DNA from: a virus
Taxonomy: Duplodnaviria > Heunggongvirae > Uroviricota > Caudoviricetes
Length of the DNA stretch: 40,277 bases
IMG/VR virus record: IMGVR_UViG_2563366843_000005
Reading direction: 5' to 3' (one strand)
In this document: piece by piece, positions 4,961 to 32,500 of the stretch
Layout of the letters: every line of letters begins with the position of its first letter
Numbering within the stretch: the stretch's first letter is position 1
Notes under the pieces: model-generated
The model's input: only the letters and a program-made list of their open reading frames with translations
What the model was told of the DNA's origin: nothing
Databases searched by the model: none
Translations under genes and position numbers: made by a program

Positions 4961-5371
4961 TTAGTGGCTCAGACCACCGCCAGTACCATTCAGGTAAACC
5001 TCCACGAGCAAATCTTTTGTGTACGTTCGTTCGATGCCGCGATGCAAGTAAAGCCGACCGCGCAAATTAGCTGATGCCGTCCAGGTACCATCTTTGTGTT
5101 TAACCAGCATACCTGGCCGGACGGCACCGCGATTAACGGTCTGAGTTCCGTAATGTTGATGAACCATAAAAACTCCTGCCCGTAAGCTGGGCTGCTGAAC
5201 ATATAGAGACTTCTGCGCGTATTCAGGCGGTGGATGGCCGCCGGTTGTCATAACTAAGCCGCCTCGTTGAAGCGACTGAGGTATGAAGTGTTGAGTTGAT
5301 TTCAGCTGGTCACACCGACGTTCACGCGTCCGCTTCACCCCTCGCACTCCCCGGAGCCTGCTGAAATTCAA
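4961..5371 (-). CDS. hypothetical protein, first ORF downstream of pL; possible N-like antiterminator
   Basis: GC-rich ORF starting at TTG or an internal GTG/ATG; N-proximal Arg-rich stretch (VKRTRERRCDQLK) resembles arginine-rich motifs of N proteins; no C-terminal similarity to lambda N. Confidence 0.3.
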   Translation of the reverse strand: MNFSRLRGVRGVKRTRERRCDQLKSTQHFIPQSLQRGGLVMTTGGHPPPEYAQKSLYVQQPSLRAGVFMVHQHYGTQTVNRGAVRPGMLVKHKDGTWTASANLRGRLYLHRGIERTYTKDLLVEVYLNGTGGGLSH

Positions 5372-5431
5372 GCTGCGGATCTAAGCGGTCATCGCAACGG
5401 CGAATCAGGTGGTTGCCGTATCGTTGTGTTG

Positions 5432-5487
5432 TTGCGACATGGTGATAATAGCTATTGCTATTAGTGATATCAATACTTATTGCTATT
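5432..5487 (-). promoter_or_regulatory. pL promoter with OL operators (-35 TTGATA at 5468-5473, 17-bp spacer, -10 TATTAT at 5445-5450, minus strand)
   Basis: Sigma-70-like hexamers on the minus strand; three TTGC-core 8-mers at 5432, 5455 and 5480 (about 25-bp spacing) mirror the array at PR. Confidence 0.5.
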
Positions 5488-5612
5488 GATTGATGCATTT
5501 TGATATTAACTGTTTGATAGCAAAAGGAATTAATTTTGTGACTTGCATCGCATAGCGATAACTGAAGCGGGGGTTGTGGTGGTTTTTTGAACGGTGTGTG
5601 ATGAGGGGAGGC

Positions 5613-5640
5613 AAAAGAAAACCCGGCACGACGGCCGGGG
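5613..5640 (-). terminator. rho-independent terminator ending the cI operon
   Basis: GC stem CCCGGC/GCCGGG with 6-nt loop, followed on the minus strand by a T-run (TTTTCTTTT), directly after the stop of the 287-aa gene. Confidence 0.6.
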
Positions 5641-5643
5641 AAA

Positions 5644-6507
5644 TCATTTCGCATCTACAATAAATAACCTGTTTATCTGGCCTTTTTTAACAGTAGCCTT
5701 TGCGGTTATAGTGAATACTGCAGATGGATCACCTTTGGTTGATATATATGCACTAAGAGCTCTAATATACGGGTTATTCTTCTTTCCTGCAGCTGGATCG
5801 CTAATTTCAGCAGTGATTCTCTTTTTTGAGTCATCACCATCTAAAATTATTTTAGCTGTCATATTTTGTGCATCAAATTCTGTAAGAAAAGCACGATACT
5901 CACGAAGACCGAGAACTTCATCATCATCAAGCCTATCAATTTCAGCTTTATCTCTCTCGTTAACTTTTAGAAGGCAGCCGTCAACATTTGTTGCAACACT
6001 TATCTGATCGCAAGTATTACCAATAGGTGATACTGCCTGCCTTACAGAGGGGCGAAGCTCTACAGCCATTCGGTCAATCAAAGAGATCAACTTATCAATG
6101 GTTCCAGCATCCTTGTTTCCTAGTGCCTCTATGGCCTTTTCAAGTGACTGCTGCAAAGCTTTCATTTCATCTTTCTTGTTAGAATTTCTCGCAAAAATAT
6201 ATTGTAGTATTGCGCCAAGTATAGTTGCGGCGATCCCCGAGAACAACTGGTTCTGAGTGGCGAAGTTAAGAACTGCTTCAAGAGTAAAGCAGTTAGCTTT
6301 TGCTTCGCGTGCGTAAACCTTAACTTCCTGATAATTAATGTATTTACTATATTTTTGTGTAACAGAGAAAGAAGCTGCTGTTGAGAGAACTTTAGAAAAA
6401 CCCTTTAGGGATTCTCCTAGGCAGTTCAAATCTATTTCATGATTTAAAGCATCTTTTCCGTCATACCTAAGAGAGATTTTTATATCCTGTAAAGCGTCAC
6501 AATCCAT
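5644..6507 (-). CDS. hypothetical protein in the rexAB-equivalent slot; candidate exclusion or defence protein
   Basis: 287-aa ORF, visibly AT-rich, 66 bp downstream of cI on the same strand, followed by a terminator; one central hydrophobic segment ([18 protein letters not shown]); no recognisable family. Confidence 0.6.
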
Positions 6508-6573
6508 AAATCGCTCTCGTCTAATTCTAATTAAATTTACTATCCCCTAAACGACTCATCAGCACAGTACTGA

Positions 6574-7266
6574 TTATCCATGTTTCCTGTACGTCTGGGG
6601 CATGCTCCCAATAACCTTACCGAAGATGAACACCCGGTTCATCTCGTCTTTCTCGATCGGGTCCCACGGTGAGTAGCTCTTGTTATCAGAGATAACCAGC
6701 AGCTTATCCTTCATCATTTGCAGGCGCTTTACATGGGCGGTGTCGTCGTACAGAAACGCATAGATGCCATCACCGTCGAAAGATTTAACCGTGATATCAA
6801 CGAACAGCAGATCACCTGGTTCGATCGTTCCTGACATGCTGTCACCACGCACGTTAATGATGCGGATATTTTCCGCCTTCCTGCCATCGAACATGTGACG
6901 AGCATCGTCAAACGAGTACTCAACCGAGCGTAGGACTTCTACAAACTCACGGTTGATGACTCCCGGCCCGGCACTCACTTCTATATCAAGAACGTCAATC
7001 TTGAAGTATTTGGAATGGTTGACAGTAGGCTTCCCTGATTGTTGACCGTCATTTCTCATCGGGCCTATGCCTGATGAGAGCCACTCTGTTCGAACACCCA
7101 ATGCATTAGCTATTTCAACAATTTTTGTTGAGCCGCGCGCGTTGCCGCTTGTCAGTCTCCAGATTGTTGGTTGAGCTACGCCAGACGCCTTTGCAAGAGC
7201 GCCTTGAGACATCCCAGATTGTTCCATCGCTAGGTTTAAGCGATCAGCAAGAGTTTCTTTTTTCAT
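6574..7266 (-). CDS. cI: CI-type prophage repressor (HTH plus S24 LexA-like peptidase domain)
   Basis: N-terminal HTH; Ala-Gly cleavage site (VSAGPG); GDSM serine and downstream KRL lysine of S24 peptidases; start set at ATG 7264-7266 (leaderless relative to putative PRM) rather than the upstream ORF start at 7323. Confidence 0.85.
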   Translation of the reverse strand: MKKETLADRLNLAMEQSGMSQGALAKASGVAQPTIWRLTSGNARGSTKIVEIANALGVRTEWLSSGIGPMRNDGQQSGKPTVNHSKYFKIDVLDIEVSAGPGVINREFVEVLRSVEYSFDDARHMFDGRKAENIRIINVRGDSMSGTIEPGDLLFVDITVKSFDGDGIYAFLYDDTAHVKRLQMMKDKLLVISDNKSYSPWDPIEKDEMNRVFIFGKVIGSMPQTYRKHG

Positions 7267-7275
7267 AAGTTTTAA

Positions 7276-7345
7276 TTTATACGCTTGCGTATTGATGGTC
7301 AAAACACGTTTTGCTATTGTCATGGTTAATACGCATTGCTATTAT
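7276..7345. promoter_or_regulatory. OR operator region with divergent PRM (leftward) and PR (rightward; -35 TTGTCA 7317-7322, -10 TATTAT 7340-7345)
   Basis: TTGC-core 8-mers at 7285, 7311 and 7336 at the same spacing as at pL; 14-bp palindromes ATACGCTTGCGTAT (7279-7292) and CAAAACACGTTTTG (7300-7313); PRM-like TTGACC-15-TATAAA on the minus strand ending next to the cI ATG. Confidence 0.55.
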
Positions 7346-7376
7346 TCATTCATTGTAATACCAATAGGAATTGATA

Positions 7377-7604
7377 ATGACAAATCAAACCATTCAACTC
7401 GCAATCAGTATTACAGGTAGTCAAAAACGACTGGCAGATCTATGCGGTGTAGCCCAGCCCACTGTTTGGCGTTGGCTACACGGTGGCGGAATTGATGCCC
7501 GCTATGTAATGAAAATTGTCTCAGCCACTGGTGGAAAGATTAAGCCAGCAGATATTCGTCCCGACCTCGCACCATTGTTTAACGCGAGTAATTCTGCCGC
7601 CTAA
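7377..7604 (+). CDS. cro: Cro-like HTH regulator
   Basis: Small HTH protein (QKRLADLCGVAQPTVWRW) divergent from cI and directly downstream of PR. Confidence 0.7.
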   Translation: MTNQTIQLAISITGSQKRLADLCGVAQPTVWRWLHGGGIDARYVMKIVSATGGKIKPADIRPDLAPLFNASNSAA

Positions 7605-7634
7605 TCTGCGGCGTTAACTGATAAGGCGATGATT

Positions 7635-8174
7635 ATGCAACCACTTACATACCAACAGACTAGCGGATTTAGCCCGACTGCGGTGATAAATCGTTCTCAA
7701 ATAAAACAGGTGCCAGGCCACGAAAAAATTCGTGATGCCGTCCGCGCCTGGTCTGCTGAAGATAATCAGGATGTAGTTGCCGCACTCATTGTGAATGAGT
7801 ATCGAGCACAGGGCGGCGGCACCATCGATTTTCCTGATGATGTCAGTCGTGCACGCCAGAAGCTGTTCCGCTTCCTCGATAACAAATTCGATTCTGAAAA
7901 ATACCGAAATAACGTGCGTGAACTGACCCCGGCAATTCTGGCGGTATTACCGCTGGAATATCGCGGCCACCTGGTTGAGCAGGATAGCTTCATGGCTCGG
8001 CTGGCTGAAATGGAAAAGGAACTCAGTGAGGCAAAGCAGGCGGTCATTCTCAACGCACCACGCCACCAGAAACTGAAGGAGATGAGTGAAGGCATTGTGT
8101 CGATGTTTCGAGTGGACCCGGATCTGGCTGGTCCATTGATGGCGATGGTCACCACCATGCTGGGGGCAATATGA
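7635..8174 (+). CDS. hypothetical early regulatory protein in the cII position
   Basis: 179-aa ORF between cro and O; much larger than lambda CII with no recalled similarity to it. Confidence 0.4.
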   Translation: MQPLTYQQTSGFSPTAVINRSQIKQVPGHEKIRDAVRAWSAEDNQDVVAALIVNEYRAQGGGTIDFPDDVSRARQKLFRFLDNKFDSEKYRNNVRELTPAILAVLPLEYRGHLVEQDSFMARLAEMEKELSEAKQAVILNAPRHQKLKEMSEGIVSMFRVDPDLAGPLMAMVTTMLGAI

Positions 8175-27034: not shown

Positions 27035-28529
27035 TCTTTCACACATTATTGCCGCAGCATTCAATGAACCGCTGCTTCTGGAGCCCGCCTATGCGCGGGT
27101 TTTCTTTTGCGCGCTCGGGCGCGAGATGGGGGCAGCAAGTCTTTCGGTACCACAACAACAGGTACAGCTTGATGCTCCCGGAATGCTGGCTGAAACGGAC
27201 GAGTATATGGCCGGAGGTAAACGACCGGCCCGTGTTTACCGGGTGGTGAACGGTATTGCTGTACTGCCGGTGACCGGCACGCTGGTGCACCGGCTGGGTG
27301 GTATGCGGCCATTTTCCGGAATGACAGGCTATGACGGCATTGTCGCCTGTCTTCAGCAGGCAATGGCGGATAGCCAGGTGCGGGGCGTACTGCTGGACAT
27401 TGACAGTCCGGGCGGGCAGGCCGCCGGCGCGTTTGACTGCGCTGACATGATTTACCGCCTCCGTCAGCAGAAGCCGGTCTGGGCACTGTGCAATGACACG
27501 GCCTGTTCTGCAGCCATGCTGCTGGCGTCGGCCTGCTCCCGACGGCTGGTTACCCAGACATCCCGTATCGGCTCCATTGGCGTGATGATGAGCCATGTCA
27601 GCTATGCCGGTCATCTGGCGCAGGCCGGTGTGGATATCACGCTGATTTACTCAGGTGCGCACAAGGTGGATGGCAATCAGTTTGAAGCGTTGCCGGCAGA
27701 GGTTCGCCAGGACATGCAGCAGCGGATTGATGCGGCGCGCCGGATGTTTGCCGAAAAAGTGGCGATGTATACCGGTCTGTCTGTTGATGCCGTCACGGGA
27801 ACAGAGGCTGCCGTTTTTGAAGGTCAGTCCGGCATTGAGGCCGGGCTGGCGGATGAATTAATCAATGCGTCGGATGCCATCAGTGTGATGGCCACGGCGC
27901 TGAACAGTAATGTCAGAGGAGGCACTATGCCGCAATTAACTGCAACGGAAGCCGCCGCGCAGGAGAACCAGCGAGTGATGGGGATCCTGACATGCCAGGA
28001 AGCGAAAGGACGTGAACAGCTTGCCACGATGCTGGCAGGACAACAGGGCATGAGCGTTGAACAGGCCCGGGCGATTCTGTGCGCGGCGGCACCGCAGCAG
28101 CCGGTGGCATCCACGCAGAGTGAAGCCGATCGCATTATGGCGTGTGAAGAAGCGAACGGTCGTGAACAACTGGCGGCAACGCTGGCGGCGATGCCAGAGA
28201 TGACGGTGGAAAAAGCCCGCCCGATCCTGGCTGCTTCACCGCAGGCGGATGCCGGACCATCACTCCGTGATCAGATCATGGCACTGGATGAGGCAAAAGG
28301 GGCTGAGGCGCAGGCTGAACAGCTGGCTGCCTGCCCGGGAATGACAGTGGAGAGCGCCCGGGCTGTGCTGGCTGCGGGATCAGGTAAGGCAGAACCGGTC
28401 TCTGCATCCACAACCGCCATGTTTGAACATTTCATGGCGAACCATTCACCGGCAGCGGTACAGGGTGGCGTGCCACAGACGTCAGCAGACGGTGATGCGG
28501 ACGTGAAAATGCTCATGGCCATGCCATGA
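27024..28529 (+). CDS. C: capsid maturation protease gpC (S49/ClpP-like) with nested in-frame scaffolding protein Nu3 region
   Basis: 501 aa, GTG start; N-terminal two-thirds aligns with lambda C; C-terminal part carries three Nu3-like repeat units. Confidence 0.9.
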   Translation: MRRNLSHIIAAAFNEPLLLEPAYARVFFCALGREMGAASLSVPQQQVQLDAPGMLAETDEYMAGGKRPARVYRVVNGIAVLPVTGTLVHRLGGMRPFSGMTGYDGIVACLQQAMADSQVRGVLLDIDSPGGQAAGAFDCADMIYRLRQQKPVWALCNDTACSAAMLLASACSRRLVTQTSRIGSIGVMMSHVSYAGHLAQAGVDITLIYSGAHKVDGNQFEALPAEVRQDMQQRIDAARRMFAEKVAMYTGLSVDAVTGTEAAVFEGQSGIEAGLADELINASDAISVMATALNSNVRGGTMPQLTATEAAAQENQRVMGILTCQEAKGREQLATMLAGQQGMSVEQARAILCAAAPQQPVASTQSEADRIMACEEANGREQLAATLAAMPEMTVEKARPILAASPQADAGPSLRDQIMALDEAKGAEAQAEQLAACPGMTVESARAVLAAGSGKAEPVSASTTAMFEHFMANHSPAAVQGGVPQTSADGDADVKMLMAMP

Positions 28530-31759: not shown

Positions 31760-32500
31760 ATGCCTGTACCAAATCCTACAATGCCGGTGAAAGGGGCCGG
31801 GACCACACTGTGGGTTTATAACGGGAGCGGCGACCCTTATGCAAACCCGCTTTCAGACAATGACTGGTCGCGTCTGGCAAAGGTTAAAGACCTGACGCCC
31901 GGCGAACTGACCGCTGAGTCCTATGACGACAGTTATCTCGATGATGAAGATGCGGACTGGACCGCGACCGGACAGGGGCAGAAATCTGCCGGAGATACCA
32001 GCTTCACGCTGGCGTGGATGCCCGGAGAGCAGGGGCAGCAGGCGCTGCTGGCGTGGTTTAATGAAGGTGATACCCGTGCCTATAAAATCCGCTTCCCGAA
32101 CGGCACGGTCGATGTGTTCCGCGGCTGGGTCAGCAGTATCGGTAAGGCGGTGACGGCGAAGGACGTGATCACCCGCACGGTGAAAGTCACCAACGTAGGA
32201 CGTCCGTCGATGGCAGAAGATCGCAGCACGGTAACAGCGGCAACCGGTATGACCGTGACGCCAGCCAGTGCTTCCGTAGTGAAAGGGCAGAGCACCACGC
32301 TGACCGTGGCATTCCAGCCGGAAGGTGTAACCGACAAGAGCTTCCGTGCGGTGTCTGCGGATAAAACAAAAGCCACCGTGTCGGTCAGTGGTATGACCAT
32401 CACCGTGAACGGCGTTGCTGCAGGCAAGGTCAACATTCCGGTTGTATCCGGTAATGGTGAGTTTGCTGCGGTTGCAGAAATCACCGTCACCGCCAGTTAA
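31760..32500 (+). CDS. V: major tail tube protein gpV
   Basis: 246 aa from [20 protein letters not shown]..., lambda V-like including C-terminal Ig-like domain. Confidence 0.9.

What the first reader, a model, noticed from the sequence alone, without database searches (positions are those of the whole stretch)
5432..5487. pL region carries three TTGC-core 8-mers at about 25-bp spacing, matching the array at PR
TTGCGACA (5432), TTGCTATT (5455) and TTGCTATT (5480) recur at 23-25-bp intervals, and the same arrangement occurs at PR (7285, 7311, 7336). A good minus-strand promoter TTGATA-17-TATTAT overlaps the middle repeat. This is the tripartite operator architecture expected for OL1-3, but the half-sites differ from lambda operators, which defines a distinct immunity specificity.
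Basis: seen in the sequence. Interest (0 to 1): 0.45.

Follow-up and report, generated by a model that had tools for sequence, protein, structure and literature searches.

The report
Phage repressor operators at pL and PR
The repeated 8-mers are halves of 18-bp repressor-binding sites flanking a lambda-like prophage immunity gene: an ordinary genetic switch with a binding specificity I found described in no paper searched, and one of the three pL copies is not a site.

Summary
The real unit, however, is an 18-bp dyad-symmetric site, yAATA(C/G)N-N4-N(G/C)TATTr.

OR has three such sites exactly 25 bp apart: 7277-7294, 7302-7319 and 7327-7344. They overlap PRM and PR as in lambda.

OL has two strong sites, 5446-5463 and 5471-5488, over the -10 and -35 of pL. 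It also has a decayed site at 5491-5508 and a conserved distal site at 5515-5532.

It scores at background, lies in flank shared with a heteroimmune phage, and is absent from homoimmune relatives.

A matrix trained only on relatives' OR sites ranks these sites as the top six hits in the 40-kb window. The sites are conserved from E. coli to Salmonella BTP1 and Klebsiella phages while the spacers drift. The cI and Cro recognition helices co-vary with operator type.

Lambda, P22, HK022 and HK639 operators do not match, so this is a distinct immunity specificity. It is common: 508 viral contigs encode a relative of the repressor. No paper in the searched library contains these operator sequences.

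Verdict: a new member of a known kind. Binding itself remains untested.

The parts
5446..5463 (.). OL1: TAATAGCTATTGCTATTA, a perfect 7-4-7 palindrome in its half-sites. It covers the pL spacer and 5 of 6 bases of the -10.
   Evidence: Matrix score 20.8, 3rd best of 40,260 positions, with a matrix trained only on OR sites of other phages. Present in all homoimmune relatives. Diversity pi 0.015.
5471..5488 (.). OL2: CAATACTTATTGCTATTG, 25 bp from OL1. On the minus strand its last 3 bases (TTG) are the first 3 of the pL -35.
   Evidence: Score 18.3, 4th best in the window. The 25-bp OL1-OL2 spacing is present in every homoimmune relative. The same geometry is seen at BTP1 pL.
5491..5508 (.). Decayed OL3 remnant: TGATGCATTTTGATATTA, 20 bp from OL2 (lambda OL2-OL3 is also 20 bp). 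The right half is good and the left half degenerate.
   Evidence: Score 1.3 here. The same position is a strong site in the Klebsiella phage (19.0) and the Raoultella prophage (15.6). Left half pi 0.15, right half 0.04.
5515..5532 (.). Distal OL site: TGATAGCAAAAGGAATTA, 44 bp from OL2, at the inner edge of the immunity-specific block. It is a candidate third operator with one good half-site.
   Evidence: Score 10.5, 8th in the window, with 1.8 hits of at least 10 expected in 40 kb. Pi 0.024. Counterparts are TGATAGCTAAATGAATTT in the Klebsiella phage and TGATAGCAAAATGAATTT, read on the complementary strand of L010 5507-5524, 43 bp from OL2 in BTP1.
5445..5473 (-). pL promoter: TTGATA-17-TATTAT.
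   Evidence: Promoter scan, 10 of 12 matches.
5438..5531 (.). Immunity-specific OL block, replaced as a unit in the heteroimmune phage PhiR47_2.
   Evidence: Pairwise alignment: about 97-100% identity up to 5437 and from 5532 onward, none in between.
5432..5439 (+). Not an operator; it lies just downstream of the pL -10, in flank shared with a heteroimmune phage.
5622..5639 (-). Intrinsic terminator ending the cI-cargo operon, just before OL.
   Evidence: Terminator scan: 6 G-C pairs followed by a T-run. Conserved in PhiR47_2.
6574..7266 (-). cI-type repressor, 230 aa: an HTH_3 N-terminal domain plus a Peptidase_S24 C-terminal domain.
   Evidence: Pfam. PDB matches to 434 repressor and UmuD'. 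Ala-Gly, Ser and Lys align with lambda cI.
7274..7302 (-). PRM candidate: TTGACC-17-TAAATT. The -10 ends 7 nt before the cI ATG, so the cI mRNA is probably leaderless.
   Evidence: Promoter scan, 9 of 12. GGTCAA is conserved across genera. The leaderless start is an inference.
7277..7294 (.). OR3-equivalent: TTATACGCTTGCGTATTG, over the PRM spacer and -10. It starts 11 bp from the cI start, as in lambda.
   Evidence: Score 21.7. Invariant in 80 loci. The offset matches lambda.
7302..7319 (.). OR2-equivalent: AAACACGTTTTGCTATTG. It abuts the PRM -35, and its last 3 bases begin the PR -35.
   Evidence: Score 15.0. Identical in 8 of 9 homoimmune loci from E. coli, Salmonella, Klebsiella, Kluyvera and Raoultella; Citrobacter differs by one base.
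7327..7344 (.). OR1-equivalent: TAATACGCATTGCTATTA, over the PR spacer and -10.
   Evidence: Best score in the window, 24.5.
7317..7345 (+). PR promoter: TTGTCA-17-TATTAT.
   Evidence: Promoter scan, 10 of 12 with an extended TG.
7356..7373 (.). Fourth OR-side site: TAATACCAATAGGAATTG, 29 bp from OR1, in the PR leader and overlapping the cro Shine-Dalgarno.
   Evidence: Score 15.4, 5th in the window. Present at +28/29 in all 9 homoimmune loci while the flanks diverge. Its right half is confounded with the cro ribosome-binding site.
7377..7604 (+). Cro (75 aa, YdaS/Cro-type HTH). Its recognition helix GVAQPTVWRW closely matches cI's GVAQPTIWRL.
   Evidence: Pfam. PDB Cro 3bd1. Helix comparison.

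Best explanation
This is the OL/OR operator set of a lambda-type immunity switch with its own DNA specificity. The 230-aa repressor has a 434-like HTH N-terminal domain and an S24 self-cleaving C-terminal domain. It binds as dimers to 18-bp dyad-symmetric sites, yAATA(C/G)N-N4-N(G/C)TATTr. At both lytic promoters, the outer end of the promoter-distal site supplies the 'TTG' of the -35. The outer end of the promoter-proximal site supplies 'TATTA' of the -10. This fixes the two sites exactly 25 bp apart and means that bound repressor occludes both hexamers of pL and PR. At OR, the middle site abuts the -35 of PRM, where by analogy with lambda OR2 it would activate cI transcription. The cI-proximal site overlaps the PRM -10 and would shut cI off at high repressor levels. 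Cro carries nearly the same recognition helix and is expected to use the same sites during lytic growth. RecA-stimulated self-cleavage at the conserved Ala-Gly would induce the prophage. Shown here: the sites, their symmetry, spacing, promoter overlaps, conservation, and co-variation with the proteins. Inferred: actual binding, cooperativity, PRM activation, the leaderless cI mRNA, OL-OR looping, and the roles of the weak, distal and fourth sites.
For: (1) A symmetric 18-mer matrix built only from OR sites of seven other phages and prophages puts OR1, OR3, OL1, OL2, the fourth OR-side site and OR2 as the top six of 40,260 window positions. Only 0.03 hits of at least 15 are expected by chance. 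The OL sites were not in the training set. (2) All nine loci with the same HTH keep the sites at fixed offsets from cI (+11, +36, +61), and OL1-OL2 at 25 bp, while the inter-site DNA differs. These loci come from E. coli, Salmonella BTP1, Klebsiella, Kluyvera, Citrobacter and Raoultella. (3) Among 80 loci with a 99-100% identical repressor, diversity is 0 in OR3, 0.003 in OR2 and 0.015 in OR1. It is about 0.025 at neighbouring synonymous sites and 0.29 in the OR2-OR1 spacer. (4) The cI and Cro recognition helices match each other and change together with the operator type in three other classes. (5) Against the heteroimmune PhiR47_2, exactly two blocks are swapped: 5438-5531 (OL) and about 7033-7647 (cI N-terminal domain, OR, cro). 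(6) The promoters overlap the sites as described, and BTP1 pL has the same geometry. (7) OR3 starts 11 bp from the cI start in both lambda and this window. (8) The repressor has HTH_3 and S24 domains, with Ala-Gly, Ser and Lys aligned to lambda cI.
Against: No binding data exist for this repressor or Cro in anything I could search. By matrix score the OR3-equivalent is a strong, near-perfect palindrome, whereas in lambda OR3 is the weakest cI site, so the order of occupancy may differ from lambda. Matrix score is not affinity. The OR sites used for training are homologous to the window's own OR sites, so only the OL hits are truly independent. The third OL site is ambiguous. The fourth OR-side site overlaps the cro ribosome-binding site, which could by itself explain conservation of its right half.
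Confidence: 0.88

Rival explanations
1. One reading: three direct 8-mer repeats with a TTGC core at 5432, 5455 and 5480 are OL1-3.
For: The three 8-mers exist at 23-25-bp intervals.
Against: The 5432 context scores -29.3, the background mean. TTGCGA is shared with the heteroimmune PhiR47_2, whose operators are entirely different. It is absent from homoimmune relatives (Klebsiella phage, and the second E. coli pL-flank type). It varies C/T with pi 0.5 at one position. TTGC is a common tetramer at 8.5 per kb and also occurs at 5413 and 5543. The sites are dyad-symmetric, not direct repeats.
Confidence: 0.04
2. The similarity between the copies merely reflects shared promoter elements (TATTAT -10, TTG of the -35) and A+T-rich intergenic DNA, not protein-binding sites.
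For: The outer ends of the sites coincide with the -10 and -35 hexamers of pL and PR.
Against: The inner half-site bases and the promoter-distal halves are equally conserved. OR3 is a near-perfect palindrome that is not part of PR. The 3' part of the PR -35 hexamer is itself hypervariable while the adjacent site bases are invariant. Heteroimmune relatives keep the promoter layout but have different palindromes that co-vary with the HTH.
Confidence: 0.03
3. The sites are recognised mainly by Cro or by another early protein (for example the YdaT-like 'cII'), and not by the S24 repressor.
For: Cro carries an almost identical recognition helix. Half-sites come in two flavours (ATAGC and ATACG) that might be read differently by two proteins.
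Against: The cI N-terminal domain is swapped together with OL and OR in heteroimmune relatives, while its C-terminal domain and the YdaT-like gene are not. Sites over pL, far from cro, are what prophage immunity requires. Shared use by cI and Cro is the expected lambda-type arrangement and is part of the main explanation, not a true alternative.
Confidence: 0.04
4. The TTGC repeats are lambda CII-type activator sites (TTGC-N6-TTGC).
For: Only the shared tetramer. The CII consensus is from my own knowledge.
Against: No TTGC-N6-TTGC occurs in either control region. The single window match is at 27932, with 3.0 expected by chance. The 'cII' here is YdaT-like, not lambda CII.
Confidence: 0.01

Closest known systems
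Phage lambda OL/OR-cI-Cro switch
   Same: Divergent cI and cro. Three OR sites overlapping PRM and PR, with OR3 starting 11 bp from the cI start in both. OL sites over pL at about 2 kb, separated from cI by cargo genes and a terminator. An S24 repressor with Ala-Gly, Ser and Lys. A probable leaderless cI mRNA. A 20-bp OL2-OL3 interval in lambda and in the Klebsiella and Raoultella relatives.
   Different: 18-bp sites with a different sequence. A lambda-operator matrix scores at most 6.1 here against 13.8-23.5 on its own sites, and this matrix scores at most 4.7 on lambda. Spacing is 25/25 bp instead of 23/24. The repressor N-terminal domain is 434-like rather than lambda-like, with 24% identity to lambda cI. 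There is an extra site in the PR leader. There is no N gene after pL. The 'cII' is YdaT-like.
P22 c2 and 434 repressor systems (HTH_3 class)
   Same: The N-terminal domain matches the 434 repressor (E 1.6e-5). The 7-4-7, 18-bp layout with an A/T-rich central spacer resembles the 18-bp P22 operators (own knowledge). The same repressor class occurs in P22-like Salmonella phages BTP1, ST104, ST160 and SE1.
   Different: No site of this type lies at the P22 operators; the best P22 hit, 9.4, lies inside cro. Identity to P22 c2 is 21%. 434 operators were not tested here.
HK022 immunity region (Carlson & Little 1993, as cited in PMC8053113)
   Same: The ST104 record calls its cI and cro 'similar to HK022'; cI is 41% identical. 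HK022 also has non-canonical operator placement: a 53-bp gap between OL2 and OL3 and an extra operator downstream of OR. HK022 CI was shown to loop OL to OR.
   Different: HK022 operators are of the TGAAC-N5-GTTCA type and give no matrix hits. Its extra operator is 300 bp downstream of OR, not in the PR leader.
Homoimmune phages Perceval (E. coli LF82), 4A7, Lambda_4C10 and PhiR30_1, and Salmonella BTP1/ST104
   Same: The same HTH and the same OR/OL sites. The window belongs to this immunity group.
   Different: The cargo between cI and OL differs. The records annotate no operators, and the Perceval and BTP1 papers describe none.

Membership tests
Lambda-type immunity switch (cI/Cro with OL and OR operator arrays) | Divergently transcribed repressor and cro genes with an intergenic control region | tested here: met
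   cI at 6574-7266 (-) and cro at 7377-7604 (+), separated by 110 bp.
Lambda-type immunity switch (cI/Cro with OL and OR operator arrays) | Repressor = HTH DNA-binding domain + S24 self-cleaving domain with an Ala-Gly site and a Ser/Lys dyad | tested here: met
   Pfam HTH_3 and Peptidase_S24. VSAGPG, GDSM and VKRL align with lambda A111-G112, S149 and K192 (the residue numbers are from my own knowledge).
Lambda-type immunity switch (cI/Cro with OL and OR operator arrays) | Three dyad-symmetric sites at OR overlapping PR and PRM | tested here: met
   Sites at 7277-7294, 7302-7319 and 7327-7344, against PR 7317-7345 and PRM 7302-7274.
Lambda-type immunity switch (cI/Cro with OL and OR operator arrays) | Matching sites over pL on the far side of cI | tested here: met
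   OL1 and OL2 score 20.8 and 18.3 with a matrix not trained on them. A third OL site is ambiguous.
Lambda-type immunity switch (cI/Cro with OL and OR operator arrays) | Operators, repressor DNA-binding domain and Cro exchanged together between heteroimmune phages | tested here: met
   Swapped blocks 5438-5531 and about 7033-7647 against PhiR47_2. Helix and operator co-variation.
Lambda-type immunity switch (cI/Cro with OL and OR operator arrays) | Repressor and Cro physically bind the sites; cooperative binding; OL-OR looping | not testable with these tools
   Needs EMSA or footprinting, reporter assays, or the loopometer assay.
Lambda immunity specificity (imm-lambda) | 17-bp operators of the TATCACCGCCAGTGGTA type | tested here: not met
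   A lambda-operator matrix scores at most 6.1 in 5300-7500, against 13.8-23.5 on lambda's own operators.
P22 immC specificity | Sites of this window's type at the annotated P22 OL/OR | tested here: not met
   The best P22 hit is 9.4, outside the operators. The repressors are 21% identical.
HK022 immunity specificity | Same operators and the same repressor HTH | tested here: not met
   41% identity and no matrix hits near cI. HK022 OR carries TGAAC-N5-GTTCA repeats.
Lambda CII activator sites | TTGC-N6-TTGC direct repeat across a -35 region | tested here: not met
   No match in either control region.

The most novel reading that the evidence does not exclude
The switch is not a simple lambda copy. 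Each side may have a conserved extra site sharing an unusual GGAATT-type right half (7356-7373 in the PR leader over the cro ribosome-binding site; 5515-5532, 44 bp beyond OL2), which could give a four-plus-four operator layout or a Cro-specific autoregulatory site. Separately, the 7 bp between OR2 and OR1, which include the 3' part of the PR -35 hexamer, are about 11-fold more diverse than nearby synonymous sites among phages with identical repressors (15 alleles). This suggests that selection tunes PR strength, and hence the induction set-point, within one immunity group. That group includes BTP1, reported to have the highest spontaneous induction known (PMC5322425).
Probability: 0.25. Interest if true: 0.45.

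Novelty: new member of a known kind. Interest (0 to 1): 0.27.

Why it matters
This work defines the operator set, a consensus, and the promoter-operator geometry for a widespread enterobacterial immunity group. The group includes Perceval of the Crohn's-associated E. coli LF82, coliphages 4A7 and Lambda_4C10, and Salmonella BTP1/ST104; 508 viral contigs encode a relative of the repressor, and the best 80 are 99-100% identical. I found no published operators for it. It allows prediction of cross-immunity between phages of different genera and gives concrete targets for footprinting and reporter work. It also gives a starting point for asking why BTP1 induces spontaneously so often. Conceptually it adds little to the lambda paradigm.

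Tried and rejected
- My first matrix used OR coordinates that were off by one, which gave a blurred motif. I discarded it and rebuilt it.
- The literature search for the bare 8-mer returned 2,017 irrelevant papers.
- Searches for four longer operator strings returned none.
- Searches for GevT/GevA and for DUF7946/DUF7947/PDC-S42 gave nothing useful.
- I tested for a put-like antiterminator RNA in the pL leader, because there is no N gene and relative HK639 has one. The fold is not significant (z -0.03), there is no similarity to HK639 putL, and there is no Rfam hit. I make no claim.
- I considered HK022 as the characterised reference for this class, following the ST104 annotation. I rejected it: 41% identity and different operators.
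- An OL3 at the regular +25 position (5496-5513) scores -27.2.
- An IHF-consensus match at 5507-5519 is not above chance window-wide: 2 found, 2.0 expected.
- The CII-type TTGC-N6-TTGC reading is excluded.
- The genome-contig scan gave only 6 loci, because its peptide patterns were specific to this sequence.

Full report
**Context.** The window is the early region of a lambdoid prophage. It carries Bet, Gam and a Kil-like ORF on the minus strand. Next come a 230-aa repressor (6574-7266, minus) with HTH_3 and Peptidase_S24 domains, a 75-aa Cro (7377-7604, plus) and a YdaT-like 'cII'. A DUF7946/DUF7947 cargo gene (5644-6507, minus) and an intrinsic terminator (5639..5622) sit between the repressor and the finding, in the position of lambda rexAB. 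The scan finds three promoters:
- pL (minus): TTGATA-17-TATTAT, 5473..5445.
- PR (plus): TTGTCA-17-TATTAT, 7317..7345.
- PRM candidate (minus): TTGACC-17-TAAATT, 7302..7274. Its -10 ends 7 nt before the cI ATG.

**The observation.**
- Exact TTGCTATT occurs five times in 40 kb against 1.57 expected, and four of these lie in the two control regions.
- An assumption-free 6-mer test names GCTATT/AATAGC as the most enriched word there (Bonferroni 2e-6).
- The repeat finder shows that the 8-mers are the right-hand part of longer 16-18-bp units that are also inverted repeats of one another.
- In the correct register the unit is 18 bp, with 7-bp half-sites and a 4-bp A/T-rich centre.

The core sites are:

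| Site | Coordinates | Sequence |
|---|---|---|
| OR3-like | 7277-7294 | TTATACGCTTGCGTATTG |
| OR2-like | 7302-7319 | AAACACGTTTTGCTATTG |
| OR1-like | 7327-7344 | TAATACGCATTGCTATTA |
| OL1 | 5446-5463 | TAATAGCTATTGCTATTA |
| OL2 | 5471-5488 | CAATACTTATTGCTATTG |

Centre-to-centre spacing is exactly 25 bp throughout.

**Statistical test.** I built a symmetric weight matrix from the OR sites of seven other phages and prophages, excluding this window and its near-twin Perceval.
- The six best of 40,260 window positions are OR1 (24.5), OR3 (21.7), OL1 (20.8), OL2 (18.3), a fourth OR-side site at 7356-7373 (15.4) and OR2 (15.0).
- Shuffled sequence gives 0.03 hits of at least 15.
- The OL sites were not in the training set, so they are an independent confirmation.

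**Comparative evidence.**
- Nine loci share the repressor helix-turn-helix ...GMSQGALAKASG(V/I)AQPTIWRL(T/V)SGNARGSTK.... They are this window, E. coli phage Perceval, Salmonella P22-like phage BTP1, a Klebsiella phage, and prophages of Kluyvera (three), Citrobacter and Raoultella.
- All nine keep the three OR sites at +11, +36 and +61 from the cI start, and keep OL1-OL2 25 bp apart. The DNA between the sites differs.
- Relatives with another HTH have other palindromes: ACAACC..GGTTTT in PhiR47_2 (82% identical overall, same C-terminal domain), K. grimontii and a Klebsiella ST101 phage; ATAAC...GTTAT in HK639; TGAAC-N5-GTTCA in the HK022 class.
- The recognition helices of cI and Cro resemble each other within each class and change together between classes:

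| Class | cI helix | Cro helix |
|---|---|---|
| This window's class | AQPTIWR | AQPTVWR |
| PhiR47_2 class | SQAAIQK | SQQAVYK |
| HK639 | SQPAIQK | SQPAVHK |

- Against PhiR47_2 the window is about 97-100% identical, except for two swapped blocks: 5438-5531 (OL) and about 7033-7647 (cI N-terminal domain, OR, cro).
- The matrix finds nothing at the operators of lambda, P22, HK022, HK639 or PhiR47_2. A lambda-operator matrix finds nothing here.

**Population evidence.** 508 viral contigs encode a relative of this repressor, and the best 80 are 99-100% identical. Nucleotide diversity among them:

| Region | Diversity (pi) |
|---|---|
| OR3 | 0 |
| OR2 | 0.003 |
| OR1 | 0.015 |
| Synonymous sites of the cI N-terminal domain and cro | about 0.025 |
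| 7-bp OR2-OR1 spacer | 0.29 |

The distance from OR to OL varies from 1.7 to 2.7 kb because the cargo differs.

- TTGCGACA at 5432 lies just downstream of the pL -10, about where transcription should start.
- Six of its eight bases are flank shared with the heteroimmune PhiR47_2.
- It is absent from the homoimmune Klebsiella phage and from a second E. coli pL-flank type.
- It is polymorphic.
- TTGC occurs 8.5 times per kb and also at 5413 and 5543.
- It is therefore not an operator.

**The third OL site.**
- At +20 from OL2 (lambda's OL2-OL3 interval), the Klebsiella and Raoultella relatives have strong sites, scoring 19.0 and 15.6.
- Here, 5491-5508 keeps only a good right half: score 1.3, left-half diversity 0.15.
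- At +44, 5515-5532 (TGATAGCAAAAGGAATTA) scores 10.5 and is conserved (pi 0.024). It lies inside the swapped block.
- It has counterparts in the Klebsiella phage and, 43 bp from OL2, in BTP1.
- I regard the distal site as the likelier third OL site in this lineage, but this remains open.
- HK022 offers a precedent for a widely spaced OL3 and for extra operators (PMC8053113).

**Mechanism.**
- At both lytic promoters, the last three bases of the promoter-distal site are the TTG of the -35. The last five bases of the promoter-proximal site plus one T are the -10, TATTAT. BTP1 pL is built the same way.
- This explains the strict 25-bp spacing and implies that a bound repressor occludes both hexamers.
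- The middle OR site abuts the PRM -35, and the cI-proximal site overlaps the PRM -10. It starts 11 bp from the cI start, exactly as lambda OR3 does.
- By analogy with lambda (established knowledge), I infer activation of PRM from the middle site, autorepression from the proximal one, use of the same sites by Cro, and RecA-dependent cleavage at the conserved Ala-Gly.
- None of these steps, nor binding itself, is shown.
- One difference deserves caution. The OR3-equivalent is a near-perfect palindrome with a high score, unlike lambda's weak OR3.

**Comparison with what is known.**
- The architecture is textbook lambda. The repressor's DNA-binding domain is closest to the 434 repressor (E 1.6e-5) and its C-terminal domain to UmuD'.
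- The specificity differs from lambda, P22, HK022 and HK639.
- GenBank records of homoimmune phages annotate no operators.
- The Perceval and BTP1 papers describe none, and no paper in the library contains the operator strings. The library does not cover older subscription literature.
- I therefore file this as a new member of a known kind.

Noticed in passing
window 7320-7326 (also 5489-5490): The 7 bp between OR2 and OR1 include the 3' part of the PR -35 hexamer. They are hypervariable among 80 loci with a 99-100% identical repressor: pi 0.29 against about 0.025 at nearby synonymous sites, with 15 alleles of 7317-7327. The window's near-consensus TTGTCA is rare (2 of 80); TTGCTT and TTGATT are the commonest. 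The 2 bp after OL2 behave the same way (pi 0.5). This is unexplained; it may reflect tuning of promoter strength.
   Followed up: partly
window 7356-7373: A fourth operator-like site (TAATACCAATAGGAATTG, score 15.4) lies in the PR leader over the cro Shine-Dalgarno. It is kept at +28/29 from OR1 in all nine homoimmune loci while the flanks diverge. It shares a GGAATT right half with the distal OL site at 5515-5532.
   Followed up: partly
window 5644-6507 (-): The cargo gene in the rexAB position encodes a DUF7946 + DUF7947 protein, with a weak match to the PADLOC defence candidate PDC-S42 (E 1.5e-4). Homoimmune relatives carry other cargo in this slot: GevT/GevA, a transmembrane protein, ST313-td in BTP1, and RexAB in a Klebsiella phage.
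   Followed up: partly
window 4961-5439 (-): No N-like antiterminator gene follows pL; the first ORF is Kil-like (annotated as such in Perceval). The 140-nt leader is not significantly structured (z -0.03). It does not resemble the HK639 putL-like RNA and has no Rfam match. How early leftward transcription passes terminators is not evident.
   Followed up: partly
window 7264-7279: The PRM -10 (TAAATT, 7279..7274) ends 7 nt before the cI ATG and no Shine-Dalgarno is present, so the cI mRNA is probably leaderless, as in lambda. The mechanical ORF list extends the ORF to an ATG at 7323, inside the PR -35/spacer just after OR2, which is unlikely to be used.
   Followed up: no
window 5507-5519 (-): TATCAAACAGTTA is a perfect match to the IHF core consensus WATCAANNNNTTR. 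It lies upstream of pL, between the decayed OL3 and the distal site. Window-wide there are 2 matches against 2.0 expected, so it is not significant on its own.
   Followed up: partly
window 32068-32085: An isolated operator-like 18-mer, TGATACCCGTGCCTATAA (score 13.8), lies far from the immunity region. About 0.4 hits of at least 12 are expected by chance, so it is probably fortuitous.
   Followed up: no
window 6613-7032 against 7033-7266: The repressor is itself mosaic. Its C-terminal (S24) domain is 92-98% identical at DNA level to that of the heteroimmune PhiR47_2, while the N-terminal domain is unrelated in sequence. Overall repressor identity (82%) is therefore a poor guide to immunity group.
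   Followed up: yes
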